DNA from: Candidatus Latescibacterota bacterium
GTDB lineage: Bacteria > Latescibacterota > UBA2968 > GCA-2709665
NCBI GenBank assembly: GCA_965248435.1
Contig: OZ252100.1
Span: 1,408,001 to 1,472,000, forward strand
Reading direction: 5' to 3'
DNA length: 64,000 nucleotides
Both the position numbers and the translations under genes were made by a program. Under the pieces are notes generated by a model, which saw only the letters and a program-made list of their open reading frames with translations, was not told the origin of the DNA and made no database searches. Positions 7,433 through 44,775 of the stretch are shown piece after piece. Position 1 is the stretch's first letter. Each line of letters opens with the position of its first letter.

Positions 7433-7552
7433 CTGCCCAAGCTTTGGCGTTCGGAAGATGGTTCTACCAAATTTGGGGTCTTTCTCACCAACCCACTACA
7501 CTGGTTTCACTCTTATTCACTTGACATCGAGCAGAGGTTGTCTCCCGCTTAT

Positions 7553-9583: not shown

Positions 9584-9597
9584 CTACATTCTCCTTC

Positions 9598-31403: not shown

Positions 31404-31489
31404 AGGTAACGTTCTCGGCACCCACGAACCCGCCGCAGGCAGGTTGGGCGGAGGCCGGATGGCCGGAGCCGCGCACGGTCGTGTTAGGC
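31404..31489 (-). repeat. attC-like site
   Basis: taacgttctc..aacccgcc/ggcaggtt..ggccggatggcc..gtcgtgttaggc. Confidence 0.8.
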
Positions 31490-31519
31490 GTAGCCACTCC
31501 GGCCACATTACCAAGAGGA

Positions 31520-32302
31520 TCAGAACATCACATCCAGAAGAAGGAAATACTCAATTTTGTCCCAATCCAGTTTCTCTTCAAGACGCTCCAGAAGAAGACC
31601 TACGTGCTGCTCTCCGAGGTCCTCTTTGACGCTCCTTATGCACATGGCAATGTCAAACCATTTGTCTCCGACACCTCCACGGCCCCAGTCGATGATCCCA
31701 GAAATGCGCTGACCATCGACGAAGAAGTTCCCGTCACTCATGTCACCGTGCGAGAACGCGGGCTCCTGGTCTGGAATATTGTCCTTTAGATGCTTGACCA
31801 GCGCTGAGGGCGATGGGAAACCTGTATTCTCGGAGCAAAAGTCTTCTTCGGCGGCGAGTCCACTCTCCAGGAGGTACTCCAATTCCGTCAGTCTGCCTTC
31901 AACGGGAATGGGGATTGGACATTCGACATGATCAATTGATTGAATGAGCCTTAAAGCCTCGATATAAGTATCTATTACTTCTGGAGGATCAAAGTCCTTT
32001 CTCTCGTACAGCAATACGCCATCTACTTCCGACATGAGCAGATACTCACGGTCGTCATCAGAAACGAAATGCATAACCCGGGGAACGGCAAGCTTACCAT
32101 CGAGCCATCGTAGGACATACTTCTCTCGTCCGACTCCGTACGTCGTGTTCTCATACCGCTTGTCGCTCACCTTCAAGAACAAGACATCCTTGTCTCTGGA
32201 GAGCCTATACACATCGCAGGGTGACATACTACCCACTTGCGATGAAAGCGAATAGTCAGAAACGATCGCTTGGAGACTGTCAGGTAGTGAGTGTAGTTCC
32301 AT
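31520..32302 (-). CDS. APH(3')-like aminoglycoside phosphotransferase (cassette)
   Basis: MSPCDVYRL, TTYGVGREK, FSHGDMSDGN, IDWGRGG..DKWFDIA, DWDKIEYFLLLD closely parallel APH(3')-III. Confidence 0.88.
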   Translation of the reverse strand: MELHSLPDSLQAIVSDYSLSSQVGSMSPCDVYRLSRDKDVLFLKVSDKRYENTTYGVGREKYVLRWLDGKLAVPRVMHFVSDDDREYLLMSEVDGVLLYERKDFDPPEVIDTYIEALRLIQSIDHVECPIPIPVEGRLTELEYLLESGLAAEEDFCSENTGFPSPSALVKHLKDNIPDQEPAFSHGDMSDGNFFVDGQRISGIIDWGRGGVGDKWFDIAMCIRSVKEDLGEQHVGLLLERLEEKLDWDKIEYFLLLDVMF

Positions 32303-32332
32303 TCGTCAAATGGTTTCCGCCGGAGGGGTTTC

Positions 32333-32474
32333 GCCCAACGGTCTCGCGGGCTGCGAACCTGCCGAGCGGGCGCGGCGGTTGCAAACCGGGCTTCTCATCA
32401 GCAAGCGCCGTGACCGCGAAAGGCAGGTTGGGCGAAGTGGCGTATGCCACGAGCCGCAGCCGGTCGTGTTATAA
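32333..32474 (-). repeat. attC-like site (long form)
   Basis: gcccaac..ggctgcg aacctgcc..ggcaggtt..gtggcgtatgccac..cgcagcc..gttataa. Confidence 0.85.
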
Positions 32475-32520
32475 GCCGTGCCGCTCCCACATCGCTTGAA
32501 GACGACACCATCGGGTGGCT

Positions 32521-33534
32521 TCAATTGAGGGTTTCGAGGTGGTTCTTGAGGGCTTGCAGATGGAGAATGATCCATTTTCGAGGGCCATCCCAGATCTGGC
32601 TCTTTGCTTGTCCCTCTGCGTCCAAAGCACGTGGAACCCAGACCGTGGTAACTCGTAATCTCTGAATCGCTACCAAGGCCCTGCACTTTTTCACCTCTGG
32701 CCAGAAGGCCTGCCACTTGATGTCGGATGATGTCTCGGAGTTGTAGGTGTCAAGATACTGTCTAGCGACCTGTTCGACAGGAATCTCGTAAGGTTCGCCG
32801 TGGTCAATGATCAAGGCTATCAAATCCATGAACCGGGGTCCAATGGCGCCACCAGCGATGTCAAAGAAAAGTACTTCCCCGTCCGCGCAGCGCTGTCCTG
32901 TATGAGGGCTGTAAGGTTCGCCGTGGTTGAACGACTGCGGGAGTTGATCTGCTTCCTCAAGCAACGAAGACACTCGTTGCTGACTCATTTGGAGAACAGG
33001 ACGCAACTCATACTCAGAAATGGCTTTCTGGAGAAGATCATCGTCGATCTGGAGAGCTCCCTCAACATCTAATAGATACTGATCGAGATTGGCCGACCAT
33101 TCTATCAATCTGAGAGGTGCACCGTCCGGCAGTGGCAGGGCAGCCAACTTGGCGGTGGAGTCAGCCCATTTCAGATGATAATCGGGTGGGATTGGCCAAT
33201 CGATGGAGATTGGAAGGTACTCCAAGATAAGCGTACAGTCACCATTGGGGTGGTCACGGTATCCAAACATGACTGCGACAGGAGCACTCAAGCGGTTCAG
33301 GAGAGTATATATCTCCGTTTCTCGTGAAAAATTCGCGGTTACCCTCTTGAGTATGACCCTGTGTTCTCCCGAGTTGTTAACTCGAAGATAAACCAGTGCC
33401 TTCTCCCCATTCCATCCACCAAGGTCCTCAGTTTCCTTCTCAACGAGGAGTTGGTCAATAGTGATGGAGCGGTCAAGATGCTCGGAAAGGATCTTCTGAA
33501 GGTCCGCTTCCGTCACACCGAGTACCGATTTCAT
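32521..33534 (-). CDS. APH/choline-kinase-like phosphotransferase family protein (cassette)
   Basis: ILKR..RE, LILEYL, PQSFNHGE, FFD...GPRFMDL; catalytic loop atypical (HGE..S.H). Confidence 0.7.
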   Translation of the reverse strand: MKSVLGVTEADLQKILSEHLDRSITIDQLLVEKETEDLGGWNGEKALVYLRVNNSGEHRVILKRVTANFSRETEIYTLLNRLSAPVAVMFGYRDHPNGDCTLILEYLPISIDWPIPPDYHLKWADSTAKLAALPLPDGAPLRLIEWSANLDQYLLDVEGALQIDDDLLQKAISEYELRPVLQMSQQRVSSLLEEADQLPQSFNHGEPYSPHTGQRCADGEVLFFDIAGGAIGPRFMDLIALIIDHGEPYEIPVEQVARQYLDTYNSETSSDIKWQAFWPEVKKCRALVAIQRLRVTTVWVPRALDAEGQAKSQIWDGPRKWIILHLQALKNHLETLN

Positions 33535-33583
33535 GACTCCTCACCAGTCCTTACTAATACCCAATCGACAGGAGCGGCATGGC

Positions 33584-33735
33584 TTATAACGGTCTCGGCA
33601 CTCCCCAAACCTGCCGAGCGGGCGTGGCGGTTGCCTTAACAGTTTTTTATTGGCTAGCAGCAAGCACCGTGACTGCGAAAGGCAGGTTTCAGCGGAGGCG
33701 CGTATGCGCCGTAGCCGTGGGTGCTCGTGTTACAC
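33584..33735 (-). repeat. attC-like site (long form)
   Basis: ttataac..aaacctgcc..ggcaggttt..ggcgcgtatgcgcc..gttacac. Confidence 0.85.
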
Positions 33736-33810
33736 GCAGGCGGCGCGCCCCCATCATGGGCAGGTATACAGGGGCTGAAATACAGTGCACACCATAAACA
33801 GGGGTGGCAG

Positions 33811-34491
33811 TTACGCACTGGGGCTCACGACCTGGCAGGAGCACCCAGGAGCAACGTACTCGCTGGCCCCCTCGCCAAATCGGACGACACCATCATAGCC
33901 AAGAGCGATGATCTCCGTACCGGCAACCACGATCGCGGACCGTTCTGAGATGGCGAGTACAGGATGCGAATGGTCCCCGACTAGCCGTGATATCATTGGG
34001 TCGTCTGAAGTCTTGTAGTGACACCATATCGTGAAGCCGTCGACGACCCCGAGGCCAGTCGTGTCCGCCAACCCTACGTCATTGGGATCTGCATGTTCGC
34101 AGCTTCTGATGTCGCATCCCATTATGATCGCACCGGCACTTCCGCCGAAGACTGGTCCGCCCGCTTCGATGAAGCGTCGCAAACCGGGCTCCATCTTCTT
34201 CGAGCGCAAGTTGGCAAGCATTGAGAAGGTGTTGCCCCCTCCGATATACACACCGCCAAAGTCCCCAAGAAGATCCGGATTTTAGTCTCCTGGGCCTGCC
34301 CACATCTGGATGGAGGTGACCCCGAAGGGGGAAATTGCCGCACAGATCCATCTGTAGGAATCCTCTGCCGGGAAGGCATCACCGGGCACGTATAGCAGAG
34401 GTTCCCTACCTGCGACCCAGGCCGCAAAGAGTTCGTGGTGGAGACGGGTTTCGTTCTCGTCTCCGCCTCCAGATAGCACGAGTCTCATCAT
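33811..34491 (-). pseudogene. peptidase E (S51)-like cassette gene interrupted by one in-frame TAA at 34282-34284
   Basis: LVLSGGGD start and YIGGGNT, GGSAGA, WCHY motifs in the same frame on either side of the stop. Confidence 0.82.
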
Positions 34492-34590
34492 TGGGTCGAT
34501 CCCTTGTCTGTCGTCCAGTGACGGGCTTCGGCTTCTTGCTCTTGTGCACGACTTGCAGAGGTGGTGTGGCTGGGATCTTGCGCCGCTTGC

Positions 34591-34733
34591 GTGTAACGTT
34601 CTCGCGGGCTGCGAACCTGCCGAGCGGGCGCGGCGCTTGCAAACCAGGCTTTTCAAAGCAAGCGCCGTGACCGCGATAAGGCAGGTTGGGCGAAGGCGCG
34701 AACGCGCCGGAGCCGCAGCCCGGCGTGTTATAC
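34591..34733 (-). repeat. attC-like site (long form)
   Basis: gtgtaac..gggctgcg aacctgcc..ggcaggtt..ggcgcgaacgcgcc..cgcagccc..gttatac. Confidence 0.85.
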
Positions 34734-34748
34734 GGCGTTGGCCAGGTT

Positions 34749-35309
34749 CTATGATTTTGTTCTTTGCTGTTGGTATTCGTCTCGCAGGATTCCGTAAACG
34801 TGGTAATCACCGAAGGCATCCCACTTCTTGTAATGTTGCTTCAAACACCCCTCGTAGCCCATACCGATCTTCTCTAGGACTCGCCCAGAGGCCGGATTGG
34901 TGTCCATGTGCCTCGCGTGAATCTTGTTCAACCCGAGTTCGTCAAAACCGTAGTGCAAAACAGCCTTCGCAGCTTCTGTGCAGTATCCGCTTCCCCAGTA
35001 TTCCTTGCCGATCCAGTATCCCATCTCCCCTCTGTCATGTGGTCGGCTGATTACAAGCCCGATCGCGCCAATGAGCAATCCATCTAACTTGAGGGTTACT
35101 GCGAAGATCACTTCATTTCCGGAATCGAAGGCCTTCCTATGGGTTGAGATCCACTTCTCCGCGTCTCCCGCTTCGTATGGATGTGGGATGTTGAGAGTGG
35201 TGGCTGCGATCTCCCGATCGCCCGCGAGTTTGTGGACTCTCGGCGCATCTTTCTCCACAAATGGACGAAGGAGAAGTCTGTCGGTTTCTAGGTTAGGTTG
35301 CTCTGCCAT
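34749..35309 (-). CDS. RimJ/RimL-type GNAT acetyltransferase (cassette)
   Basis: LETDRLLLRP, IPHPY, EMGYWIGKEYWGSGYCTEA, NPASGRVLEKIG. Confidence 0.93.
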   Translation of the reverse strand: MAEQPNLETDRLLLRPFVEKDAPRVHKLAGDREIAATTLNIPHPYEAGDAEKWISTHRKAFDSGNEVIFAVTLKLDGLLIGAIGLVISRPHDRGEMGYWIGKEYWGSGYCTEAAKAVLHYGFDELGLNKIHARHMDTNPASGRVLEKIGMGYEGCLKQHYKKWDAFGDYHVYGILRDEYQQQRTKS

Positions 35310-35343
35310 TGGTGGTTACTGGATTCATTCCCCGGCCAATGCC

Positions 35344-35432
35344 GTATAACGTTCTCGCGGGCTGCGAACCTGCCGAAGGCAGGTTAGGTCCGAGGCCCGA
35401 AAGGGCCTGAGCCGCGCACGGTCGTGTTATGA
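35344..35432 (-). repeat. attC-like site (short form)
   Basis: gtataac..aacctgccgaaggcaggtt..ggcccgaaagggcc..gttatga; overlaps the stop codon of 35427-36257. Confidence 0.85.
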
Positions 35433-36257
35433 GCCGTGCCGCTCAATTACTGTGATGAGATCATACTCTTCGTGTAATCTGTATCCAAGCTTTAGAGCAA
35501 GACCGTCTGATCGTGGATTTTCGGTGGTTCCCCAATGAGGCTCCTTGTCACTCCTTATGCATTCTGACAGAAGGGCAGCTGAGGCGACAGTTGCAAGACC
35601 TAATTTCTGAAAGCCGTCATCTGTTCCCACTCCCACCTCAATCGAGGATTCACTCACTCCGAAGGAAGTGGCTTCCGCAACTCGTTCACCGTCCTTGAGA
35701 ATCCAAAAACTGATTCCGCCTCGTTCAAAGAATCGTCTCAGCCTGACAAAGGCCAGAACCTTTCTTTCCACATCGATCCCTCTTTCCCTTGCCATTTCCT
35801 CATCGAACCGACGGAGCTCAAATCCAGGCCGCAGCCGACCTCTGAGGTCCGAGAGATGGGTGAGGTCCAGGAACTTTGCAGAGTAAATCTTCCTTCTCCG
35901 TGTCAGGACTCTCTTTTCAATAGCCGAAAGTATAGCCGTGTTCCACTCCTCATTCTCTGGTGTCAAGAGTTCTCCGGTGAACTCGGTACTCCACTGGGGG
36001 TAAGAATTGGCAACAGAAATCCTCGAACAGATTTCCCCAAGACTCGTCAAAGATGGATCCCCGCCAATCAGAACGTCTGAACCCACCCTCAACTTAGCGA
36101 TCCGAGGATTCACAGCATCATCCACGGAAACCTCGACAAAGTCCTTAAATCCGTCGAAATAACCTTCGAAAGTTGCGTCAATATAGGGACGAAGCCTTCT
36201 GTGGCCATCGAACAGGCTGCTACATTGGAACCAGTCTTCAGGTTTCAGTTTGACCAC
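35427..36257 (-). CDS. GNAT family acetyltransferase (cassette)
   Basis: IEVGVGT...QKLGLAT, PHW...N.RS..LALKLGY. Confidence 0.85.
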   Translation of the reverse strand: MVKLKPEDWFQCSSLFDGHRRLRPYIDATFEGYFDGFKDFVEVSVDDAVNPRIAKLRVGSDVLIGGDPSLTSLGEICSRISVANSYPQWSTEFTGELLTPENEEWNTAILSAIEKRVLTRRRKIYSAKFLDLTHLSDLRGRLRPGFELRRFDEEMARERGIDVERKVLAFVRLRRFFERGGISFWILKDGERVAEATSFGVSESSIEVGVGTDDGFQKLGLATVASAALLSECIRSDKEPHWGTTENPRSDGLALKLGYRLHEEYDLITVIERHGS

Positions 36258-36329
36258 AACAAGCTCCTCTCTTCTGCGGCATGGCTCATTGTATCTTGAA
36301 AATATGATCTATTTGTAGATTATCTTGGT

Positions 36330-36505
36330 TCGAAGAAGACCTCTGGGGAGGCCGGATTGCGCATGAAGGCATTGACCTTGGACGTTAGATAGGCCCCCCG
36401 CCTTCTTGGCCCATGCCGAGGAGTATCCGAGACCCGAGAGTCTGTATCACAAGGCTGGTAGGCCAGGTGCAAGGTCGGGGGACCAGAGGTACAAATAAGG
36501 AGGGA
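36330..36505 (+). ncRNA. putative bridge/seek RNA of the IS110 element
   Basis: two stem-closed loops holding segments that match the target (attgcgcat, acgtta) and the donor junction (gagtatc, ggtacaa); exact ends unknown. Confidence 0.68.
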
Positions 36506-36511
36506 GAGATC

Positions 36512-37504
36512 ATGAAGCAAGAGAATCTGTTGGGGGTAGATGTCTCAGCCCGGGAGCTGGTGGTCGCGATCCGTCGCTCAGGGAAAGCGTATCCACTGGC
36601 AAGATTTCCCAACACAGGCGAAGGGCACCGTCGATTGATCAAGTGGGCGACAAAGCGGGGAAAGCCGGCTCGAGTGGGAGTCGAGGCCACAGGCATCTAT
36701 AGTTTTGAGGTGGCGTTGGCGTTGTATCGGCATCCGAAGACTCAGGTGATGGTAATCAACCCCAGAGCGCTGAGGAATTTCTCTCAGGCTTTGATGAAAC
36801 GGGGGAAAACCGACCCGATCGATGCGGAAGTGGCATTGGAGTATGTGCAGCGGATGCCCTTCCAGACGTGGCAGGCACCCCGTGATGAAGTACTTGACCT
36901 GCAGGCGATTACACGCCGGATCGCGCAGATCAAAGTCGAGATCAACCGGGAAGGAAACCGGCTTCACGCTTCCACGCAACGCCCATCGGTCGCGTCTGCG
37001 GTCGCCTTGGACATCGAAGAGCATGTTGAACATCTCAAAGCGCGTGTGCAGCAGCTGAAAGCGCGGGCTCTGGAGCTCATTGAGGGGGAAGCCACTCTGC
37101 GCGAGAAGTTCGCGCGATTGACTTCCGTTCACGGGATCGCAGCAACCAGCGCGATGGGCATTCTGGCAGAGATTTCGATGTTGCCTGCCGACATGAAGCC
37201 TGCCCAATGGGTGGCCTACGCAGGCCTGGATCCACGACCCCACGAATCGGGAGACACGATTCAGAAGCGCCGAGTGATCTCCAAAGCGGGGAATAAGTAC
37301 TTACGAACCGCCTTATATATGCCAGCGCTGGTGGCCATTCAACAGCAGCCCAATGTGAAGGCGTTCTACGAAAAACTCATCAGTCGAGGCAAGAAGCCCA
37401 TGCAGGGGGTCATCGCGGTGATGCGAAAGCTGCTTCACTCCATCTGGGGTATTCTCCAACACAACCAGGACTTCGACGGAGAAAAGTTCTACAAAATGGC
37501 TTGA
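36512..37504 (+). CDS. IS110 family DEDD transposase/recombinase
   Basis: GVDVS, VEATG, KTDPIDA, HGI, AYAGLDP..HESG, SKAGNKYLR. Confidence 0.96.
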   Translation: MKQENLLGVDVSARELVVAIRRSGKAYPLARFPNTGEGHRRLIKWATKRGKPARVGVEATGIYSFEVALALYRHPKTQVMVINPRALRNFSQALMKRGKTDPIDAEVALEYVQRMPFQTWQAPRDEVLDLQAITRRIAQIKVEINREGNRLHASTQRPSVASAVALDIEEHVEHLKARVQQLKARALELIEGEATLREKFARLTSVHGIAATSAMGILAEISMLPADMKPAQWVAYAGLDPRPHESGDTIQKRRVISKAGNKYLRTALYMPALVAIQQQPNVKAFYEKLISRGKKPMQGVIAVMRKLLHSIWGILQHNQDFDGEKFYKMA

Positions 37505-37521
37505 CCACCAAGAGAGTATCT

Positions 37522-37616
37522 AACGTTCCCGCGGGCTGCGAACCTGCCCAAGCGCAGCGAAGGCAGGTTAGGTCGGAGGCCCGAAAGGGCCGGAGCCGCA
37601 GCCCGACGTGTTAAGT
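37522..37616 (-). repeat. attC-like site (short form), core interrupted by IS110
   Basis: aacgttccc gcgggctgcg aacctgcc..ggcaggtt..ggcccgaaagggcc..cgcagccc..gttaagt. Confidence 0.85.
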
Positions 37617-37986
37617 GTCCGTGCCGGTGCCCGTATCGAGATACGCTCCAACATCGCGGTCAGACGGATGTCCAGCGTCCGCAGGTCCAGCCCTCCTACT
37701 GACCGATTTGACTCCCTGCAGTACGTGTGTTTCCTTCTCCGACAAGGGCACTATATTAGCGATGGCTATAGCACGACATTGTAGGAGAGACCCGAGCAGT
37801 TCGAGATCGATGACGATATGATGTCCAATCTCGGGCCTGACGGGACATCAATGCTTTGGATCGACCAAAGAGAGATATGTCGACACGAATCCATAGAACC
37901 GAGTGCCCAAGCCGGAAGCTACTTTACCAGCCATCCAGGCGCAAGAAATGGGCCTTGTAGTTCCTACACGTAGAGGAGACCAGAAG

Positions 37987-39033
37987 ATGGACGACGCGAT
38001 GCGTGACACGTTCGCACGACAAGGCTATGTCGTGGTGCCCGACGTTCTCAATCAACAGCAGCTGGACGAGCTCAATGAAGTCTACGATCAGCAGGTCCTC
38101 AGGGGGGAGGAGACGCTGTCCGCCCGCACCGATAACCAGACAAGCTTCTCCGTCCACGGGCGCGACATGCACGAGACGACGGACCGGCACGGCAACACCT
38201 ACGTGGGGAGAAGGCTCTGGAGCAAGACCTACAGGGACCTGATCGACAACGAGACCATGCTGCCCATCGTCGAAGAGATTCTGGGCGACCCGGCGTGGGG
38301 CCATGCCCCGGCACACATGCCGGAAGAGCTCCGCCCGTTGTTCCGGCTGGATCATGACAATGTGCACTACAAGACTGGCCGGAAACCGACAGACGGACCG
38401 GACAAGGGCGGGAGGCTCCACGGCGGCCCGGACCACTGGCATATCACGTGTGTGTATGAACTCAAGACGGTGGGACCGGGTGACGGGGGCTTCGGGTGTG
38501 TCGTCGGCACCCACAAGCCGGCCAATGAGCAGAAACTGCTGGACATCGACGGCGACTGGCGGTCGAACTGGTGCGACACGGAGTGGACGTCGCAGCTGCC
38601 GAACTGGGATCAGGATGTGCCGGTGCATCGCGTCGAGGCCAAGGCCGGGGACTGCATTCTATTCACGGAGAAGCTCAAACACGGCACGATTCCGTGGTCG
38701 GGGAGCGGCGAGCGGCGCACGCTCTTCTACAAGTACGTTCCTTTCGGCATGCACCACGGCGACGCCGCGTACGACACGAATGATCCCGAACTCACCGAGC
38801 GGCAGAAACGCATCCTGGAGTTCTCGCCGTGCTGGTTCAACGAGCCGAGGGAGGACAAAGACTACGCCGCGAACCCGGCGCTCACGGAGCTCCATCCGCT
38901 GGCGCGTGTGGAGAGCGACCCGAGCGTGTTGCTGCCGGGCATGTCGCCGCCGCGCATCCGACTGACGGATGAGACCAGGGCGAGGCTGCTGAGCGCCGGT
39001 GGAGTTGGAGCGAGTGCACACGCGAAGTTGTAG
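37987..39033 (+). CDS. PhyH family dioxygenase, inverted within its cassette
   Basis: RBS aggag; FARQGYVVVPDVL, LHGG, GGFGCVVGTHK, AGDCILFTEKLKHGT, RRTLFYKY. Confidence 0.88.
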   Translation: MDDAMRDTFARQGYVVVPDVLNQQQLDELNEVYDQQVLRGEETLSARTDNQTSFSVHGRDMHETTDRHGNTYVGRRLWSKTYRDLIDNETMLPIVEEILGDPAWGHAPAHMPEELRPLFRLDHDNVHYKTGRKPTDGPDKGGRLHGGPDHWHITCVYELKTVGPGDGGFGCVVGTHKPANEQKLLDIDGDWRSNWCDTEWTSQLPNWDQDVPVHRVEAKAGDCILFTEKLKHGTIPWSGSGERRTLFYKYVPFGMHHGDAAYDTNDPELTERQKRILEFSPCWFNEPREDKDYAANPALTELHPLARVESDPSVLLPGMSPPRIRLTDETRARLLSAGGVGASAHAKL

Positions 39034-39150
39034 TGTTTGATACCTGTCGGCACTTGCTGCGACTGGATCACGGTACCGGCGCCCTGGGCGGATGCGAGAC
39101 AACGCGCCTATCCTGGAGAACCACGCATCGTGTCTAGGCACCGGCATTAC

Positions 39151-39225
39151 ACTTAACGATTAAGCGTGTATCCGGAGTCGGAGAAGCGTGGATGGGAGCG
39201 GGATTCCGGATACACGGTGTTGAAC
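39151..39225 (-). repeat. attC-like site closing the recombinase/Y2 unit
   Basis: acttaac..cgtgtatccgga / tccggatacacg (12-bp perfect IR)..gttgaac. Confidence 0.75.
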
Positions 39226-39430
39226 GAAGCCGCTTCACCTGCCTATGGGGATTGGATGAGTGATTCTTGTGTAAGGACCGCTGGGCTGGCCCAGTCATCG
39301 GACCGTATTTGAAGCTGTTTGGAGGGGCCGATGTCGCAGGATCCCATAGTCGCTCTACCAAGCTCAAAGAGTGGACAGACTACTGCCGTGTTGGGTGGTT
39401 GGGCTTGCGGGCAAGGGATGGTGTAGGAGC

Positions 39431-40615
39431 TCAAGCTACGGCAACATGTGCCGGAGGCGCTCGCAGAGGCGCGAGGGTTCCGACTGTGAGCATAGGGCCT
39501 CCGCACTGCGCACAGACCTGAAGATCGATGCCTGTTACCCGGAGCAGAAGGTCCTGCCAGGTCGCCTTTGTGGCTGCGGAAGCCGTCGTGCATACAGTGC
39601 CCAGGAGCCTACGGCATCGTGCGAGCTTTTTCCGGCGACCCCGATTGCTGAGCAGTCCGTAGTGCCGGATCTTCACGAAGCCATCCGGCAGGATGTGAAG
39701 CAGGAACCGCCGGATGAACTCGTAGGCATCGACGGTCATCAGCTTCCGTCGGTTGCCGTCCTGGCGGTCCCGGTAGTGGAATGAGACCCGGTCGCCCTCA
39801 CAGGCGACCAGCCGGTGGTTGGAGATGGCGATCCGGTGTGTGTATCGTCCCAGATAGGCCACGACGCGTTCTGGATCCGCAAAAGTCGGCTTGACGTAAA
39901 CGGTCCATTCTCTCTGGTAAAGACCCCGAAGCAGATCGAAGAACGCATCTTCCAGTGGAGCACTCAATCCCGGGAACGCCAGAAGGCCTTCCTGGTGCGC
40001 GTCCTTCAGGAACGCAAGGAACTTCCCCCGGAACAGTCGGGACAGAACTTTTACGGGTAGAAAGAAGCCCCGTCGCGCCGCCTTCCATTCCTGACCGTCG
40101 TGGGTCAGCCCACCTCCAGTTACGATACAGTGCAGATGCGGGTGGTCGATGAGTGTCTGAGACCACGTATGAAGCACGGCGGTAAAGCCGATCTGCGCTC
40201 CAAGATACTTCCGTTCCCGCGCCAGCTCCAGAAGACTCTGCGATGCGGCTTTAAACACCAGGTTGTAGATCAGCTTCTGGTTCCGCAGAGCAAGCGGCCG
40301 CAGGGGCTCGGGCAACGTGAAGACGACGTGGAAGTATGGGATCGGAAGGAGATCCTCTTTACGAGCGTCGATCCATCGTTCGGTCGTCAGGAACTGGCAC
40401 TTCGTACAGTGCCGGTTGCGGCAGGAGTTGTAGGCGATCCGCTTCGCTCCGCAGTGTCCGCACACTTCCACGTGTCCGCCCAGCGCAGCTGTTCGGCAGA
40501 TCTGGATAGCCCGCATGGCCCGCTTCTGCCGAAGCGGCATGTGATCACCGTATTCTACTTGATAGCTGTCTCCGTGGGCCCGGAAGATGTCGGCGACTTC
40601 GAGAGCCTGTGACAT
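39431..40615 (-). CDS. IS91-family Y2 (HUH rolling-circle) transposase with Zn-binding domain
   Basis: C..C..YNSCRNRHC.KC, FHVVFTLP, HPHLH (HUH), YLGRY, IRHYG. Confidence 0.95.
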   Translation of the reverse strand: MSQALEVADIFRAHGDSYQVEYGDHMPLRQKRAMRAIQICRTAALGGHVEVCGHCGAKRIAYNSCRNRHCTKCQFLTTERWIDARKEDLLPIPYFHVVFTLPEPLRPLALRNQKLIYNLVFKAASQSLLELARERKYLGAQIGFTAVLHTWSQTLIDHPHLHCIVTGGGLTHDGQEWKAARRGFFLPVKVLSRLFRGKFLAFLKDAHQEGLLAFPGLSAPLEDAFFDLLRGLYQREWTVYVKPTFADPERVVAYLGRYTHRIAISNHRLVACEGDRVSFHYRDRQDGNRRKLMTVDAYEFIRRFLLHILPDGFVKIRHYGLLSNRGRRKKLARCRRLLGTVCTTASAATKATWQDLLLRVTGIDLQVCAQCGGPMLTVGTLAPLRAPPAHVAVA

Positions 40616-40627
40616 GGCCGACCTCCG

Positions 40628-41479
40628 CTACGAAGTCGGCTTGTCTTCATCTCCCAAAAGGTCCAGGGGGCTTCTGATACGCGTGAGGTCCCGGGTGGTG
40701 ACGTGGAGGTAGACGGTGGTGGTTCGAATGCTCGTGTGACCCAACAGTTGTTGGACGAAGCGGATGTCGACTCCGTTGTCCAGAAGATGCGTGGCGAAGC
40801 TGTGACGCAGCGAGTGGACACTCGCACGCTTTTGTATCTCCGCGCGTCGGCAGGCCTGCTCGAAGACTTTCTGGACAGTGCGAGCATGGAGCGGCGCGTC
40901 CGGTCTTTCGCCGGGGAACAGCCAATCGCGAGACGGGTTGGTGCGCCAATAGACGCGGAGTGCCTTTAAGGCCTCCTGGGCCAGAAGCGTCTCTCGCTCT
41001 TTTTGGCCTTTGCCCCGCACACGGATCAGCATCCGGTCACTGTCGATATCGGAAAGCTTTAGCCCGATGGCCTCACTCAGTCTGAGCCCGCCAGAGTAAA
41101 TGACCATCAGCAGCGTACGGTGTTTCAGGTTGTTGGTCCTGTCGATCAGCCGCTGCACTTCCTCTGTGGAGAGTACCACCGGGAGCTTCTTTGCCTTCTT
41201 CGCACGAGGGATGCCCCACTCGACCCAGTCACGCTTCAACGTCGTTTGGAACAGAAACTTCAGCCCGCTGTATACCTGGTTGACATAGCTTTGGGACAGC
41301 TTCCGCTCAGTGATCAGATAGTGCAGATAGGCGCGGATCTCTTCTTCGCTGAGCCGGTCGGGCGGTGTCTTGCAGTAACGACACAGCCCGGCCACTCCGC
41401 TCACGTACGCCTTCTGCGTATCCGGATCTAAACCTTTCAACTGCATGTCCCGGATCATTCGCTTCCGATGCTTGGTCAT
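40628..41479 (-). CDS. tyrosine recombinase (integron-integrase-like, without the IntI-specific insertion)
   Basis: LPVVLS.EEV, GLRLSE, GKG.KER, HSLRHSFATHLL, LLGH...TTVY; short YW...WLFP span. Confidence 0.95.
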   Translation of the reverse strand: MTKHRKRMIRDMQLKGLDPDTQKAYVSGVAGLCRYCKTPPDRLSEEEIRAYLHYLITERKLSQSYVNQVYSGLKFLFQTTLKRDWVEWGIPRAKKAKKLPVVLSTEEVQRLIDRTNNLKHRTLLMVIYSGGLRLSEAIGLKLSDIDSDRMLIRVRGKGQKERETLLAQEALKALRVYWRTNPSRDWLFPGERPDAPLHARTVQKVFEQACRRAEIQKRASVHSLRHSFATHLLDNGVDIRFVQQLLGHTSIRTTTVYLHVTTRDLTRIRSPLDLLGDEDKPTS

Positions 41480-41814
41480 GGCTCTCTCCTTCTGCTGATG
41501 GTGGACGTTGTTAGCAGAAGGAGGATGCGAAGCACAGAGCCATTTGCAAAGTGGCTCCGGACTTGCACGGTATCATATCCTGGTTGTCAAAGAGCAAAGG
41601 CCTTGCAGCAGGCCACCGCGAAGCGGTTTAGTTCAACTTCTGCATTCACGCACCAGGTTCGCTTTTTCGTCCTAATATCCGAGTATAGACGCCGTGCGCG
41701 AATCTGCTAAATAATGTATATAATCTGTCCCTGTTCGCGAATGCTTTTCTATAGATACACCTAATATTCCCAACCAGAGGGTTTAATTCATCAGGCTGTC
41801 AATAGGAATGCATT

Positions 41815-42828
41815 TCAACCCTTCCTGACTCGCTCTGCCAATCCCTCTTCCACGAGCTGTCGGTTCAGAAACAGGCCCTTTTCCAGCACTTCCTCCGCCG
41901 CTTCTCCACCTGGCAGGTAAAACAGATCCGCCAGGTACCGATCGTATTTGTCCGGCTTCGTCGTCGTCACGACGACGAACGGCACCCCTTTCAGCGCCTC
42001 CGCGACAAAGTCCCTGGCACGCACGCCTTCCGGCGTCTCGAGTTCTGGCGTGTCGATCCCCCGCAGCCTCACCTTCTGCCTCGCCCACACCCGGAACCCG
42101 CAGTCGATGTCTAGCCAGACCGTATCTCCGTCGATGACGCGCAGAACGCGCGCCACGTAGGTATAGAATGCGGCGGTTCGTTCGGCGGCTTCAGCGAAGC
42201 GGTAGACCTCGGGCCCTTCGCGCGTCGCCTTTAAGAACTGCCCCGCGCGGAGCCCGTCAGCGTCCGGAATCGGCCAGGCGAGCTGAGTCCCGAACCCCAG
42301 GTCCAGCCTCAGGCCGCGCGCCTCGACCAGCTTGTAGGTGTAGAACTGCCCGCGCAATGCCGGCAGCTGTAGCGCTGGCCCTGATCCTGGAACCCGCGAT
42401 TTTGCGTCCGCGAACGCTCCGGACCGGATCTGAGCCTCCAGTTCACGCACGCTCCAGCGATGCTCCTGGGCGGCTGCCTCAGCGGCCTGCCGCTGGGCGT
42501 CTTCTGGGAGCTTCAGCAGGGCCCGGTAATGAGTCCAACCCAATTTTCCACGCGCGTGGAAAATTGGGCGAAATCGATAAAAAGCCACGGCCTCATACAG
42601 AATCGAGTTACTGAGCCCGACGTCGGCCGCAAGCCGCACCAGGGTCTGCTCTCCGTACGTGGCCGGATGCGAGAGCAGGTATTCACTCACCACCCCGCCG
42701 ATCGCGTGGTAGGTGCGCAGCGTCTCACGCTCCACCGCCGCGGCAGCCCTCGCCTTCCCTTCCCGGAGGAGGCGGGTCACTTCAGTCTTCAGAGCGGGGT
42801 ACTCGTCAGCTAGAATCGCTTGTGTCAT
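41815..42828 (-). CDS. DUF1016 (YhcG) N-terminal domain fused to a staphylococcal-nuclease (thermonuclease) domain
   Basis: YHAIG...YGE..L.RLA, KLGWTHYRALL, WSVREL; then RVIDGDT, VRLRGIDTPEL, DKYDRYLAD, LN..LV..GLA. Confidence 0.85.
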   Translation of the reverse strand: MTQAILADEYPALKTEVTRLLREGKARAAAAVERETLRTYHAIGGVVSEYLLSHPATYGEQTLVRLAADVGLSNSILYEAVAFYRFRPIFHARGKLGWTHYRALLKLPEDAQRQAAEAAAQEHRWSVRELEAQIRSGAFADAKSRVPGSGPALQLPALRGQFYTYKLVEARGLRLDLGFGTQLAWPIPDADGLRAGQFLKATREGPEVYRFAEAAERTAAFYTYVARVLRVIDGDTVWLDIDCGFRVWARQKVRLRGIDTPELETPEGVRARDFVAEALKGVPFVVVTTTKPDKYDRYLADLFYLPGGEAAEEVLEKGLFLNRQLVEEGLAERVRKG

Positions 42829-42961
42829 CGCAATCCTCCAAAACGCTCATGACGCTGTATTCGGTGCGCTGAAAAGATCGATCATCTCAAGGTTCAGAAC
42901 CGTCCACGGACGTTTGCAGAGCTCAGTCAAAAGTCTCGACTCGATAGAATCGAGCAGTCAC

Positions 42962-43894
42962 CTACTGACCGGTGACGGAATCGACGTTGCGGAAGATGTG
43001 CTTCAGGCGGTCGATATCGGCCTGAGGAAGCGGTGGGCGCTCGAAGCTCGCGATGTTCTCCTGCAGGTGATCCGGATTGCCCGTGCCGGACAGAATGACG
43101 TGTGTGCCGGGCTCGTACCGGCAGAAGCGGTAGGCTGCGTCGGGGATGCTGACCGCGCCGGTCTCGTGGACGAGGAAGTCGAGCGGATGGCCGACGTCGT
43201 CCAGATCGCCCGCATCCAGCTGGCCGGCCTCGATCAGCCCGCGGACGACCTCGACGAGAAACGCCGGGTCGCTCATCGCTTTGCGAACGGCGAACATCAC
43301 CTGAATCCCGACGTCCTGTTCGATCGCCCTCGGGAAGACAGCGTCCCGCGCGGTCTGGTTCAGGATGTTGAATCCGACCATGGCGACGTCCCACAGGTCG
43401 TCGGCGAGGGCGGCCTTCAGCATGTCGTGCGCCTTGTCCGAGTTGAACATCTCCGTGATGCCGATGTAGCGGATCTTGCCCGCTTCCCGCAGTTTGACCA
43501 GCTCCGGGTGGAGCGCTTCGCGGCATCGCGCGTAGTCGTCGGGGAGGACGCCGTGGAGGCTGTAGACGTCGATGGTGTCGGTCCCGAGCCGCTCCAGGCT
43601 CTCTTCGCAGCTTGGGGCAACAGTGTCGGCTGTTCGACCTTTCGAGCTCTTCTTGGTCGAGATGATCAGCTGGTCGCGAGGGATGTCCTGGAGCGCCAGC
43701 CGGATGATCGGCTCGGTACCGTACCCCTCAGCCGTGTCGATGAAGTTGACGCCGGCCTCGAACGCCTTCAGGATGATGTCGGCCGACTCCCGGTCCGTCT
43801 TCCCGGTCCCCTTGCCGATCCGGCTCGGCCCTCCGGCCCCGATTCCCACGACGCTGACCTCGAGGCCCGTTCTGCCAAGCGCGCTTCGATCCAT
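42962..43894 (-). CDS. aldo/keto reductase
   Basis: LGRTGLEVS, FIDTAEGYGTE, SLERLGTDTID, GKIRYIG. Confidence 0.93.
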   Translation of the reverse strand: MDRSALGRTGLEVSVVGIGAGGPSRIGKGTGKTDRESADIILKAFEAGVNFIDTAEGYGTEPIIRLALQDIPRDQLIISTKKSSKGRTADTVAPSCEESLERLGTDTIDVYSLHGVLPDDYARCREALHPELVKLREAGKIRYIGITEMFNSDKAHDMLKAALADDLWDVAMVGFNILNQTARDAVFPRAIEQDVGIQVMFAVRKAMSDPAFLVEVVRGLIEAGQLDAGDLDDVGHPLDFLVHETGAVSIPDAAYRFCRYEPGTHVILSGTGNPDHLQENIASFERPPLPQADIDRLKHIFRNVDSVTGQ

Positions 43895-43977
43895 TCGCTT
43901 TTCTCTTTGCTGGGAATCCCGCCGGCGATCTAAAAGATTTCGCTCATCCGGGGCTGTCCGCAGGCTGACACCCGGTC

Positions 43978-44775
43978 TCAAAGCAGCTTCTCGAACGCGT
44001 CCTTCACCCTCACCTTGTCCGCCGAGTCTCCGAACCCCAGGCTGAACCACCCCGCATAACCCATCGCGTTCAGCTTCTCAAACAGGGCCTCGAAATCGAT
44101 CGTGCCCTCACCCGGCACCAGATGCACCTCGTAATCGCCCGAGTTGTCGTTGATGCGCACCTGCCCGATCTTCTCCGAGCCGAACGCATCCAGAAATCCC
44201 GCCCAGCCCTCGGGCACCAGGTGCCCGTGCGCCACGTTGAACGCCCACTTGAAATGCGGCGCGTCGATCGCATCCACGAACCACCGCATCTCTTCCACGT
44301 TGTGCGGAATATAATGGATCTCGGCGTGCTCGGGTTCCTTGTTGTGGTTCTCGAAATAGATCTCCACGCCCGTCCCTTCGGCCCGGTCCACCAGACGCTC
44401 GATGCGCGACACCGCAGCTTTGCGCCGCTTTTCCACGTCGCCGAAGTGATACCCCCCGTGCCCCACCAGCCACCCGCAGCCCAGTTCCACCGCCAAGTCC
44501 AGGTTGGCGTTAAGATAGGCGTCTACCGCATCCGACAGAATCGGTACGTACTCGGCATTGTTGATCGCCGAAGACGGATGCACTCCGATCTGCACCCCGT
44601 GCTCCTCGCACAATTTCCGCACCCGGCGCACCCGCTCCGGCCCGAACGAAGCCAGATCGTTGGGCGGCAAATCGGCCTGGAAATCTACATACCGGAACCC
44701 GTTTTCCCCTGCCCAGGCGATGCCGTCTTCCAGCGGCGTGCGGTTCGACATGTTATATCCGAATCGATCGCTCAC
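43978..44775 (-). CDS. sugar phosphate isomerase/epimerase (xylose-isomerase-like TIM barrel)
   Basis: HGG, YFEN, NVAH, NDN.G..E.HL.PGEG.ID. Confidence 0.82.
   Translation of the reverse strand: MSDRFGYNMSNRTPLEDGIAWAGENGFRYVDFQADLPPNDLASFGPERVRRVRKLCEEHGVQIGVHPSSAINNAEYVPILSDAVDAYLNANLDLAVELGCGWLVGHGGYHFGDVEKRRKAAVSRIERLVDRAEGTGVEIYFENHNKEPEHAEIHYIPHNVEEMRWFVDAIDAPHFKWAFNVAHGHLVPEGWAGFLDAFGSEKIGQVRINDNSGDYEVHLVPGEGTIDFEALFEKLNAMGYAGWFSLGFGDSADKVRVKDAFEKLL

What the first reader, a model, noticed from the sequence alone, without database searches (positions are those of the whole stretch)
39151..41637. Tyrosine recombinase + Y2 rolling-circle transposase pair packaged as the first cassette of the array
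Seen: on the minus strand the unit starts with GTTGAAC (a GTTRRRY core, 41637-41631). It ends with GTTCAAC (RYYYAAC, 39225-39219), then a 12-bp perfect hairpin, then the GTT of the next cassette. Its ends match 16/18, the same grammar as the cargo cassettes. The recombinase has all catalytic residues but lacks the IntI insertion used for attC recognition. Known: some IS91-family elements carry an upstream phage-integrase-like ORF of unclear role. Inference: this is a self-mobilising cassette in which the HUH enzyme generates ssDNA and the recombinase acts on hairpin att sites, and it may also shuffle or mobilise the downstream cassettes.
Basis: partly seen in the sequence, partly recalled or inferred. 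Interest (0 to 1): 0.85.

Follow-up and report, generated by a model that had tools for sequence, protein, structure and literature searches.

The report
Self-moving IS91 element parked at integron sites
This is one of six intact copies of a known type of jumping gene (an integrase-like recombinase plus a rolling-circle transposase) that here always lands exactly on the spot where integrons insert new gene cassettes, which hints at a mechanistic link between the two systems.

Summary
Window 39154-41637 (minus strand) is a 2,484-nt unit. It encodes an intact tyrosine recombinase and an intact IS91-family Y2/HUH transposase. It has 16/18 terminal inverted repeats, a 12-bp perfect subterminal hairpin, and GTT at both junctions. 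The pair is a known kind: the ISAzo26-like subgroup of the IS91 family. Its end anatomy (inverted repeats plus a large hairpin) recurs in every subgroup member examined, including ones outside integrons.

What is unusual is the position. The genome holds six near-identical copies and no canonical IntI. All six copies sit at the terminal GTT of a diverged ~130-nt repeat. That repeat is homologous to the attI-like region that follows insertion-less IntI-like recombinase genes in two relatives. Five of the six copies are followed by attC cassette arrays. In a related genome, homologous units sit at the attI of a canonical IntI and at an attC.

So "first cassette" is supported, and self-mobilisation is likely. 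The proposed two-enzyme mechanism (HUH enzyme makes an ssDNA circle, recombinase integrates the folded site) is plausible but unproven. Mobilisation of downstream cassettes is unsupported. I rate it a new variant of a known kind, with moderately high interest.

The parts
39154..41637 (-). Whole repeated unit: 2,484 nt from GTTGAAC to AATCGTTA, or 2,480 nt (41636-39157) by the integron G|TT convention. It is one of six copies in the genome.
   Evidence: The six copies are all 2,484 nt with no indels and form two subfamilies (99.7-99.9% within, 97.8-98.1% between). Contig (unitig) breaks in public runs fall at 39154 and 41637/41638.
41620..41637 (-). Left (terIS-like) end. It is the 18-nt inverted repeat starting with GTTGAAC. 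It overlaps a small palindrome ACCGC-TTC-GCGGT (41615-41627).
   Evidence: (pair I3, 16/18). The same GAAC-TAA-CCGC..GCGG layout is seen in G004, Pirellulales, ISAzo26, Clostridium and Sinorhizobium elements.
41480..41619 (-). Leader between the left end and the recombinase start codon.
   Evidence: It is conserved in all six copies. Its function was not tested.
40628..41479 (-). Tyrosine recombinase, 283 aa. It is IntI/Xer-like, has a full catalytic set and lacks the IntI insertion.
   Evidence: NF040815 scores 219 bits (cut-off 220). TIGR02249 scores 195.5 bits (cut-off 265). It is intact in 6 of 6 copies.
39431..40615 (-). IS91-family Y2 HUH transposase, 394 aa. Features: an N-terminal zinc-binding domain (Pfam Zn_Tnp_IS91; CxxC motifs at residues 52 and 70, and a third CxxC at 368), the histidine motif HPHLH at 158-162, and the tyrosine pair Y254/Y258.
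   Evidence: (NF033538 452.7 bits, cut-off 125; motif positions). It is intact in 6 of 6 copies.
39219..39236 (-). Right inverted repeat, ending in GTTCAAC (39225-39219), which fits RYYYAAC. It contains the small palindrome GAAGC-G-GCTTC.
39165..39216 (-). Subterminal hairpin (oriIS-like): a 12-bp perfect stem with a 28-nt loop.
   Evidence: The stem covaries across relatives. G000 has GTGTATCCGGA/TCCGGATACAC, G004 has TTGTATACGGA/TCCGTATACAA, and L040 and L043 have TTGTATCGGGA/TCCCGATACAA.
39154..39164 (-). Seven-nt tail CTTAATC followed by GTTA. This is the right junction, and the GTT is shared with the target.
   Evidence: All six copies end ...AATCGTTA and then diverge into different cassettes.
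41638..41763 (-). The insertion target, which is not part of the unit. It is a ~130-nt attI-like repeat whose last bases are ...GAATGCAGAAG(TT).
   Evidence: The repeat has 11 places in the genome: 6 occupied and 2 full-length empty ones that read ...AGTT|AA.... It is homologous to the region directly after the recombinase genes of G003 and G018.
31408..39153 (-). Downstream cassette array, given as context. The attC 3' ends (last T of GTT) are at 37522, 35348, 34595, 33588, 32337 and 31408. The first cassette after the unit carries a reversed PhyH-family gene (37903-39033, plus strand).

Best explanation
The unit is an active, ISAzo26-like member of the IS91 family: an IntI-sister tyrosine recombinase plus a Y2 HUH transposase. 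In this lineage it integrates site-specifically at the G|TT crossover of integron attI-like sites, and in a relative also at an attC. It therefore ends up as the first cassette of the array.

Most likely mechanism:
1. The HUH transposase nicks at the hairpin (oriIS-like) end and peels off one strand by rolling-circle replication as far as the left (terIS-like) end. This gives a single-stranded circle. The step is inferred from IS91.
2. In that circle the two 18-nt terminal repeats pair (GTTCAAC with GTTGAAC) below the 12-bp hairpin. The fold has the R''-L''-L'-R' layout of an attC. This is shown by sequence and is the same grammar as the cargo cassettes.
3. The element's own recombinase, which lacks the IntI insertion but belongs to the sister clade of IntI, exchanges one strand between this folded site and the attI-like repeat at G|TT. 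Replication resolves the product. This step is inferred.

Shown here: element identity, copy number, exact boundaries, target identity, and absence of a canonical IntI. Inferred: which enzyme makes which cut.
For: 1. Six intact copies have identical boundaries, and 6 of 6 lie at the terminal GTT of a repeat family. The members of that family are only about 60-94% alike, whereas the units are 97.8-99.9% alike. All six 3' flanks are different cassettes, which points to separate insertions.
2. Two empty repeats read ...AGTT|AACAG and ...AGTT|AAGTGCAATGCCGGTGCC. The second mirrors the window's two junctions.
3. GTTA/TAAC occurs 12,408 times in the chromosome, so a tetranucleotide alone cannot explain the targeting. 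Among integron-type GTT sites, the unit uses only the attI-like ones: 8 full-length sites against at least 34 strictly scored attC sites. If six independent hits were spread at random, the chance would be (8/42)^6, about 5e-5.
4. The repeat is homologous to the ~150-nt region directly after insertion-less IntI-like recombinase genes in G003 and G018. That region is conserved up to ...TAGTT and then diverges. In G003 it runs into a cassette with an attC. A C-terminal fragment of such a recombinase sits in front of an empty repeat that heads attCs in this genome.
5. In G004, homologous units (55% and 61% identity) sit about 190 nt after a canonical IntI (464.6 bits), at ...AATAGTT|GAAC. Another copy sits at an attC-like site.
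6. No canonical IntI was found in this genome or in its genus mate.
7. The junction identity between the circle and the target is only GTT plus one further base. That is too short for a classical two-strand exchange but is normal for integron-type single-strand exchange.
8. IS91 inserts its bottom-strand circle (PMC13181058, Introduction read). Here the unit's genes and the array's cassettes point the same way, so that strand would carry the strand of the attC-like site that I recall as the recombinogenic one in integrons.
9. Three Clostridium estertheticum copies of a related element lie between inverted 9-nt arms, GTCGTGAAA and TTTCACGAC, within related flanks. This is again a repeated, structured target.
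Against: 1. No circle or excision junction was seen. Only assembled contigs were available, and they stop at the repeat boundaries.
2. The inverted repeats plus hairpin are family-wide IS91-type oriIS/terIS features (PMC13181058). They also occur in elements with no integron context, so the likeness to attC may be convergent or ancestral rather than functional here.
3. On the bottom strand the junctions read target TAAC| ... element ... CAAC|. This is the same 'target resembles terIS tetranucleotide' rule as in IS91. The HUH enzyme alone could therefore make both cuts.
4. The spacers between the R-like and L-like pairs are 2 and 7 nt, and no extrahelical bases are evident. The site is not a typical attC.
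5. The published view is that the IntI insertion is essential for integron function (PMC8138268, passage read).
6. Sinorhizobium and Pirellulales relatives show other junction sequences and no GTT core.
7. The six insertions may not be fully independent. The last ~95 nt of the 5' flanks of L002 and L004 are 94% alike.
Confidence: 0.45

Rival explanations
1. This is ordinary IS91-type rolling-circle transposition by the Y2 transposase alone. The enzyme cuts after YAAC on the bottom strand: TAAC at the target and CAAC at the left end. The recombinase has an accessory role, for example circle or dimer resolution, or regulation, as Orf121 does in IS91. The attI preference would then come from a hairpin-plus-spacer context that the HUH enzyme recognises, because that context resembles its own oriIS end.
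For: The transposase is a full family member (NF033538 452.7 bits) with an HUH motif and a tyrosine pair. The ends have one palindrome on the left and two on the right, as described for IS91 and IS801. All 8 target sites in this genome, 2 of 2 distinct 3' flanks in G004, and L040 read GTTA, which is TAAC on the bottom strand. Each target has a small hairpin 7-10 nt before the GTT, like the unit's own right end. Sinorhizobium copies have variable 5' ends, as expected from imprecise terIS termination.
Against: Known IS91-family members need only a tetranucleotide. Here, 12,408 GTTA/TAAC sites and at least 34 attC sites that end in GTTA and fold strongly are all ignored in favour of the attI-like repeats. 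In relatives, those repeats sit next to genes for the sister recombinases. The recombinase is kept intact in 6 of 6 copies and is conserved with the transposase across phyla.
Confidence: 0.25
2. The unit is a passive integron cassette. Its right end works as an attC for a host integrase, which would be a canonical IntI as in G004 or an insertion-less platform recombinase as in G003 and G018. On this view it was inserted at attI like any other cassette, and its own two genes are merely cargo with respect to this position.
For: The unit is bounded by G|TT on both sides, has R''/R' cores that fit RYYYAAC/GTTRRRY, and shows the same head-to-R'' complementarity as cargo cassettes. In G004 an intact canonical IntI lies directly upstream. 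attI is the preferred entry point for cassettes (recalled knowledge). A GNAT cassette is duplicated cassette-precisely between two arrays at 97.5% identity, so cassette traffic did occur.
Against: This genome has no canonical IntI and only a 74-residue fragment of a platform recombinase. Yet the unit has two young subfamilies of three copies each. It is first in every array it occupies, and it is the only 'cassette' present six times. The site departs from typical attC spacing.
Confidence: 0.17
3. The six copies were spread by homologous recombination or segmental duplication between attI-like repeats and arrays, not by transposition. The GTT boundaries would then be inherited from a single old event.
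For: The targets are repeats, and some 5' flanks share 84-94% identity over 95-1,100 nt.
Against: Identity falls from at least 97.8% to about 60-94% exactly at the GTT on the left side. On the right side it falls to unrelated cassettes in all six copies. Duplication would carry the flanks along at the same identity.
Confidence: 0.03

Closest known systems
ISAzo26-like subgroup of the IS91 family (IS91-type transposase preceded by a tyrosine recombinase gene)
   Same: The gene pair and its order are the same. The recombinase is 47.5% identical to the one beside the annotated 'IS91-like element ISAzo26 family transposase' on the Aromatoleum aromaticum EbN1 plasmid. The end anatomy is the same: a left repeat GAAC/GGAC-TAA-CCGC..GCGG, and a right repeat followed by a large hairpin and a short tail. 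The recombinases of 11 such pairs form one clade with 100/99 support.
   Different: In this lineage every copy lies on an integron recombination point (attI-like or attC) at GTT. The Sinorhizobium copies show no such context, and the Sinorhizobium and Pirellulales copies lack a GTT core. The Aromatoleum element does begin GTTGGAC directly after a perfect palindrome, but I saw only one copy and no integron context. I recall that ISfinder/TnPedia list this subgroup and call the recombinase's role unknown, but I could not read that source.
Integron gene cassettes (attC x attI recombination by IntI)
   Same: The unit is bounded by G|TT and sits directly after an attI-like site, ahead of attC cassettes. 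Its R''-like GTTCAAC and R'-like GTTGAAC flank an inner hairpin. Head-to-R'' complementarity is 17/22, against 17-19/22 in neighbouring cassettes. Its recombinase is sister to IntI (preprint 10.1101/542381, passage read).
   Different: It carries two genes plus a 158-nt leader, counted from the GTTGAAC end to the recombinase start codon, instead of one promoterless ORF. The spacers are 2 and 7 nt, and no extrahelical bases are evident. The encoded recombinase lacks the IntI insertion and scores below the IntI cut-off. It also encodes its own HUH transposase.
IS91, IS801 and IS1294 (classical rolling-circle IS)
   Same: All have an HUH/Y2 transposase and functionally distinct ends with subterminal palindromes. 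The target and the left-end tetranucleotide resemble each other (TAAC and CAAC here; GTTC and GTTC, or CTTG and CTCG, there). There is no evident target duplication beyond the shared GTT.
   Different: The target is not GTTC/CTTG, and the choice of site is far narrower than a tetranucleotide would allow. The element also has an additional recombinase gene. IS91 itself has the unrelated orf121.
ISShvi3 in a Shewanella integron
   Same: [quoted passage not shown]
   Different: That is a single observation made in passing, with no multi-copy evidence, no attI targeting and no mechanism. I could not examine the sequence.
CTX-phage-type integration (an HUH replication protein makes ssDNA, and a folded ssDNA site is integrated by Xer recombinases)
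   Same: The proposed logic is the same: rolling-circle ssDNA, then a folded hairpin site, then a single strand exchange by a Xer/IntI-like recombinase, resolved by replication. The mechanism is recalled knowledge. PMC9345347 (passage read) groups cassette integration at attI with CTX integration at dif as replicative, tyrosine-recombinase-mediated insertions.
   Different: CTX uses host-encoded XerCD and a dif target, and it is a phage. Nothing about it was tested here.

Membership tests
IS91 family (ISAzo26-like subgroup) | Y2/HUH transposase with an N-terminal zinc-binding domain | tested here: met
   Pfam Y2_Tnp scores 208 bits and Zn_Tnp_IS91 110 bits. NF033538 scores 452.7 bits against a cut-off of 125. 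HPHLH lies at 158-162 and YLGRY at 254-258.
IS91 family (ISAzo26-like subgroup) | Two different ends with subterminal palindromes (oriIS downstream and terIS upstream of tnpA) | tested here: met
   The right end has two palindromes (GAAGC-G-GCTTC and the 12-bp hairpin). The left end has one (ACCGC-TTC-GCGGT). This matches the layout described in PMC13181058. Their function as ori and ter was not tested.
IS91 family (ISAzo26-like subgroup) | Target tetranucleotide GTTC/CTTG next to oriIS | tested here: not met
   The flank next to the hairpin end reads GTTA on the top strand, i.e. TAAC on the bottom strand, in 6 of 6 copies and 2 of 2 empty sites.
IS91 family (ISAzo26-like subgroup) | No target-site duplication | tested here: inconclusive
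   GTT is present once in empty sites and at both junctions of occupied sites. This could be a shared crossover or cleavage motif, or a 3-bp duplication.
IS91 family (ISAzo26-like subgroup) | Tyrosine recombinase gene directly upstream of tnpA in the same orientation | tested here: met
   The same arrangement occurs in annotated plasmid records and in 6 of 79 loci from other phyla. For 3 further loci the contig ends too soon to tell.
Integron gene cassette | Delimited by the G|TT crossover, and located after attI within an attC array | tested here: met
Integron gene cassette | A 3' attC with R''(RYYYAAC)-L''...L'-R'(GTTRRRY), an unpaired central spacer and extrahelical bases | tested here: inconclusive
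   The R'' GTTCAAC and the circle-form R' GTTGAAC fit the consensus, and an inner 12-bp stem is present. However, the spacers are 2 and 7 nt, no extrahelical bases are evident, and the sequence is unlike this genome's attC family. I did not run an attC covariance model.
Integron gene cassette | Moved by an integron integrase | not testable with these tools
   No raw reads were available and no circle junction was seen in contigs.
Integron integrase IntI (for the encoded recombinase) | Scores over the TIGR02249 cut-off and carries the IntI-specific insertion in the catalytic domain | tested here: not met
   TIGR02249 scores 195.5 bits against a cut-off of 265, in two stretches. The insertion is absent in alignments with IntI of G004 and with 2a3v.
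Integron integrase IntI (for the encoded recombinase) | Catalytic R-K-H-R-H-Y residues | tested here: met
   R133, K157, H222, R225, H248 and Y257 are invariant in alignment A1.
XerC/XerD/XerA | Scores over the family cut-offs | tested here: not met
   XerA NF040815 scores 219 against 220 (just below). XerC scores 188.8 against 335. XerD scores 184.3 against 330. In the tree, the genome's two Xer-like proteins fall outside the 98/97 clade that holds the unit's recombinase.

The most novel reading that the evidence does not exclude
This lineage may be a living link between rolling-circle insertion sequences and integrons. On this reading, an IS91-type element's ssDNA circle folds into an attC-like site, and its own insertion-less, IntI-sister recombinase integrates it at attI. 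In the same bacterial family, insertion-less IntI-like recombinases head attC arrays (recombinase, then an attI-like region, then cassettes, all in one orientation). That would mean cassette recombination can work without the IntI-specific domain. It would also mean many 'integrase-less' attC clusters (CALINs) have an overlooked integrase.
Probability: 0.3. Interest if true: 0.85.

Novelty: new variant of a known kind. Interest (0 to 1): 0.68.

Why it matters
The role of the recombinase in the IS91 subgroup that carries one is unknown. Here the insertion pattern gives it a testable job, namely choosing integron attI sites.

If the recombinase does integrate a folded single strand, three things follow:
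- It would show attC-type recombination by an enzyme that lacks the IntI insertion thought to be essential.
- It would explain how cassette arrays can be served in genomes scored as lacking an integrase.
- It would offer a plausible evolutionary route between HUH rolling-circle elements and integron cassettes.

There is also a practical point. An element that plants a recombinase and a rolling-circle transposase at the head of arrays is relevant to how arrays move and rearrange. One array here carries an APH(3') family cassette.

Tried and rejected
1. Short-motif scans for the 5' flank with 2 mismatches were too noisy. I replaced them with an nhmmer profile.
2. An Rfam scan of 33000-44000 at E <= 1 gave 0 matches, so the attI-like repeat is not a known RNA family.
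3. I folded the attI-like repeats. Several share an outer GCATTC/GAATGC stem, but the GTT is unpaired, so they are not attC sites.
4. I looked for a circle junction. All 7 runs found were kept as assembled contigs only. Four were laid, and contigs break at 39154 and 41637/41638. No back-joint between about 39155 and 41637 was seen, and the listed joints have short sides and low likeness. This says nothing about whether circles exist.
5. MAFFT misaligned the 3' hairpin arms because the loops differ in length (alignment A2). I therefore made no formal pair count and read the covariation by eye.
6. In the tree I labelled four Burkholderiales-type loci (L074, L078, L089, L100) 'IntI' without testing them. 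They fell outside the IntI/IS91 clade on a long branch, so that label was wrong or unverified.
   - L045 is treated as a canonical IntI only because its K-to-H spacing (107) equals that of IntI of G004.
   - Only 37 of the 79 loci entered the tree, plus 15 other proteins.
   - phmmer did not match 2 (L044 and the second EbN1 recombinase).
   - I dropped 11 rows for short or truncated coverage (L041, L043, L051, L052, L067, L069, L072, L075, L080, L083, L107). This left 39 rows.
7. The idea that upstream DNA was co-mobilised by one-ended transposition was rejected. The shared DUF1016-SNase gene upstream of two copies is only 84% identical, against at least 97.8% for the unit.
8. The attI-like profile found nothing in relatives' loci. 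Homology to the G003 and G018 regions was then shown by direct alignment.
9. E5351 is an attI-like repeat followed by 14 nt identical to part of the unit's left end. It has no other match in the genome and remains unexplained.
10. Literature searches for this behaviour found only the ISShvi3 remark. Supplements were closed and not consulted. They may hold IS91 target tables that bear on the tetranucleotide comparison.
I did not use complex prediction, structure prediction or the large protein searches.

Full report
WHAT IS THERE. On the minus strand of the window lie two adjacent ORFs: a 283-aa protein (40628-41479) and a 394-aa protein (39431-40615).
- The first carries Pfam Phage_integrase and Phage_int_SAM_4. 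The second carries Y2_Tnp and Zn_Tnp_IS91.
- With NCBIfam, the second is an IS91 family transposase (452.7 bits, cut-off 125). The first scores just under the 'XerA/integron integrase' model (219 against 220) and under IntI (195.5 against 265).
- The transposase has HPHLH at 158-162 and the tyrosine pair Y254/Y258.
- The recombinase keeps R133, K157, H222, R225, H248 and Y257. It lacks the roughly 40-residue insertion that a canonical IntI from a relative has. Its best solved relative, IntI4 (2a3v), aligns in two blocks that skip that insertion.

- GTTGAAC lies at 41637-41631 and GTTCAAC at 39225-39219. The 18-nt terminal inverted repeats match 16/18.
- A 12-bp perfect hairpin has arms at 39205-39216 and 39165-39176. 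Its fold has z = -2.73.
- A 7-nt tail follows, then GTTA at 39157-39154.

IT IS A SIX-COPY MOBILE ELEMENT WITH EXACT ENDS.
- The genome (5.67 Mb) holds six copies. All are 2,484 nt from GTTGAAC to AATCGTTA, with no indels. They form two subfamilies of three: 99.7-99.9% identity within, 97.8-98.1% between.
- Both ORFs are intact in 6 of 6 copies.
- To the right, similarity stops after GTTA, and six different sequences follow.
- To the left, similarity drops at the GTT. It does not fall to zero, because the six left flanks belong to one diverged ~130-nt repeat family.

THE TARGET IS AN attI-LIKE SITE.
- A profile of the left flanks finds 11 places in the chromosome: the 6 occupied ones and 5 others.
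- Two of the others are full length and read ...GAATGCAGAAGTT|AACAG and ...GAATGCCGTAGTT|AAGTGCAATGCCGGTGCC. The second is a near match to the window's left flank joined to its right flank (...AATCGTT|AAGTGTAATGCCGGTGCC). Insertion is therefore within or next to a single GTT.
- Downstream of the unit, the window holds a genuine cassette array. The attC ends (last T of GTT) are at 37522, 35348, 34595, 33588, 32337 and 31408, with consensus ...GGCAGGTTCGCAGCCCGCGAGAACGTTA.
- Genome-wide I find 35 attC hits at up to 6 mismatches. With a stricter rule that also demands the inner pairing and an AAC, I find 34. They lie in clusters.
- Five of the six units lie 0.75-2 kb upstream of such a cluster in the same orientation. 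For the sixth (L006) none was found with this motif.
- One empty repeat is preceded by a 74-residue C-terminal fragment of a recombinase and followed by three attCs.
- In relatives G003 and G018, a full-length insertion-less recombinase (50-51% identical to the unit's) is followed by a ~150-nt region. That region is conserved between the two genomes up to ...CC(A/G)TAGTT and then diverges. In G003 the next sequence is a cassette ending in a typical attC.
- This region aligns with the repeats of this genome through blocks such as CTATAGGAAGCATTC.CGAAC and GGTTCG..AAT.CC.TAGTT.
- I therefore read the ~130-nt repeat as the attI-like end of an integron-type platform in which the integrase points the same way as the cassettes.

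NO CANONICAL IntI HERE, BUT ONE IN A RELATIVE.
- TIGR02249 finds nothing over its cut-off in this genome. The best matches are the units' own recombinases.
- Among 41 genomes of relatives, 2 have an IntI over the cut-off (G004 and G036). The genus mate G001 has none.
- G004 is also the only other genome of 132 in the class with a close homologue of the transposase.
- G004's three full units (recombinase 55%, transposase 61% identical) have the same ends: |GTTGAACAAAACCGC... and ...GTTCAAC-hairpin-...CCGTTA|.
- One G004 unit lies about 190 nt after an intact canonical IntI (464.6 bits) in the same orientation. One lies after a truncated copy of that IntI. One lies at the GTT of an attC-like site behind an IS3 element.
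- A fourth, decayed copy keeps only 41 residues of the recombinase.

THE KIND IS KNOWN.
- The recombinase has homologues under 60% identity in 458 plasmid records.
- In Aromatoleum aromaticum EbN1, the neighbouring gene is annotated 'IS91-like element ISAzo26 family transposase'. The same pair occurs in Clostridium and Sinorhizobium plasmids.
- Among 79 loci from other phyla, 6 carry the pair (Pirellulales x3, Eremiobacteraceae, Terriglobia, Acidobacteriota). In 3 more the contig ends too soon to tell, and 2 close ones have no transposase.
- All these elements share the end anatomy: a left repeat (T)TG(A/G)AC-TAA-CCGC..GCGG, and a right repeat ending GT(T/C)CAA, then a large hairpin and a 6-13-nt tail.
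- This fits the published description of IS91-family ends: one palindrome at terIS and one or two at oriIS (PMC13181058, Introduction read).
- The hairpin is kept by two-sided changes between G000, G004 and the Eremiobacteraceae and Terriglobia elements.
- In a 39-row tree, the recombinases of 11 such pairs form one clade (100/99). That clade is sister (85/91) to a group made of canonical IntI and the three platform recombinases (85/83), inside a 98/97 clade. The genome's two Xer-like proteins lie outside it.
- It is already in print that IS91-borne recombinases are the closest relatives of IntI and lack its insertion (preprint 10.1101/542381, passage read; published version PMC8138268, passages read).

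WHAT IS NOT ORDINARY.
- Classical IS91-family elements choose a tetranucleotide. This element's GTTA/TAAC occurs 12,408 times in the chromosome, yet 6 of 6 copies sit at attI-like repeats.
- Among integron crossover sites, it uses none of at least 34 attC sites. With 8 usable attI-like sites among 42, six independent random choices would all be attI-like with probability about 5e-5. Independence is an assumption. The 3' flanks are all different, but two 5' flanks are 94% alike over 95 nt.
- Relatives in G004 show the same habit.
- Distant relatives do not. Three Sinorhizobium copies have non-integron flanks and variable 5' ends. Three Pirellulales copies have CGAA-type junctions.
- Three Clostridium estertheticum copies lie between inverted arms GTCGTGAAA and TTTCACGAC in related flanks. 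This is another repeated, structured target.

MECHANISM.
- The unit's head is complementary to the stretch before its R''-like AAC in 17/22 positions. Four of the six downstream cassettes in the window score 17-19/22 on the same measure.
- In a single-stranded circle, the paired ends plus the inner hairpin would therefore mimic an attC. The crossover would lie at the base of the fold.
- The circle junction and the target share only GTT plus one further base. That fits integron-type single-strand exchange, or HUH cleavage, but not classical two-strand exchange.
- On the bottom strand the same junctions read TAAC| ... CAAC|, which is an IS91-like rule. The junctions alone therefore cannot tell which enzyme cuts.
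- I favour the two-enzyme model (0.45) because the targets are sites that, in relatives, belong to the sister recombinases.
- The rivals are the transposase-only model (0.25), the passive-cassette model (0.17) and spread by recombination (0.03).
- No circle junction could be sought in raw reads.
- Nothing supports mobilisation of the downstream cassettes. By analogy with IS91, read-through would take the upstream flank, and the upstream flanks are not co-mobilised.

VERDICT. This is a member of a known IS91 subgroup with a new, integron-site-specific habit. With it comes evidence that insertion-less IntI-like recombinases head attC arrays in this bacterial family. Interest is 0.68. The most novel reading is given separately, with probability 0.3.

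Noticed in passing
window 36287-37549 (transposase ORF 36413-37504, plus strand): An IS110-family element (NF033542 201 bits) lies immediately after the GTT of the attC ending at 37522, and it displaces the head of the next cassette. Copies at 98.5-99.5% identity lie in two other arrays, each again after an attC ending GTT-AGATAC. This resembles the attC-targeting IS1111 group.
   Followed up: partly
L031 (G003) 8790-9761 and L030 (G018) 8677-9837: Insertion-less IntI-like recombinases (TIGR02249 206-214 bits, below the cut-off) are followed in the same orientation by a conserved ~150-nt region ending ...TAGTT, and then by divergent sequence. In G003 that sequence is a cassette with a typical attC. 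No canonical IntI was found in these genomes. These may be integron platforms that lack the IntI-specific domain.
   Followed up: partly
window 31520-32302 (minus strand): One cassette encodes an APH(3') family aminoglycoside phosphotransferase (NF033068 221.5 bits, cut-off 205).
   Followed up: no
window 41815-42828 (minus strand): The gene upstream of the attI-like repeat has DUF1016_N, ParB-type HTH and SNase domains. Paralogues at 84% and 76% DNA identity lie upstream of two other copies of the repeat: directly upstream for L002 and about 3.8 kb upstream for L006. It may be part of the platform.
   Followed up: partly
window 34597-35350 and G000 C1:4653778-4654530: A GNAT acetyltransferase cassette is duplicated cassette-precisely, from the TT after G to its own attC, in two arrays at 97.5% identity. 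In the second array it is the cassette directly after a unit copy.
   Followed up: partly
L142 (G000 C1:5351100-5351700), about 100-235: A truncated attI-like repeat is fused to 14 nt identical to part of the unit's left end (GCTTCGCGGTGGCC). This may be a deletion remnant of an old copy. It has no other match in the genome.
   Followed up: partly
L028 (G004) 7505-8720: The canonical IntI of G004 points the same way as its cassettes (the so-called inverted arrangement), with about 190 nt between its stop codon and the crossover GTT.
   Followed up: no
window 33590-34597 (minus strand): This cassette has no ORF of 150 aa or more on the array strand. The reading frame seen in the sequence appears interrupted.
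   Followed up: no
L139-L141 (Clostridium estertheticum plasmids): Related IS91-plus-recombinase elements sit between inverted 9-nt arms (GTCGTGAAA ... TTTCACGAC) inside flanks that are related between plasmids. This suggests a specific palindromic target there too. NCBI annotates these recombinases as 'site-specific tyrosine recombinase/integron integrase'.
   Followed up: partly
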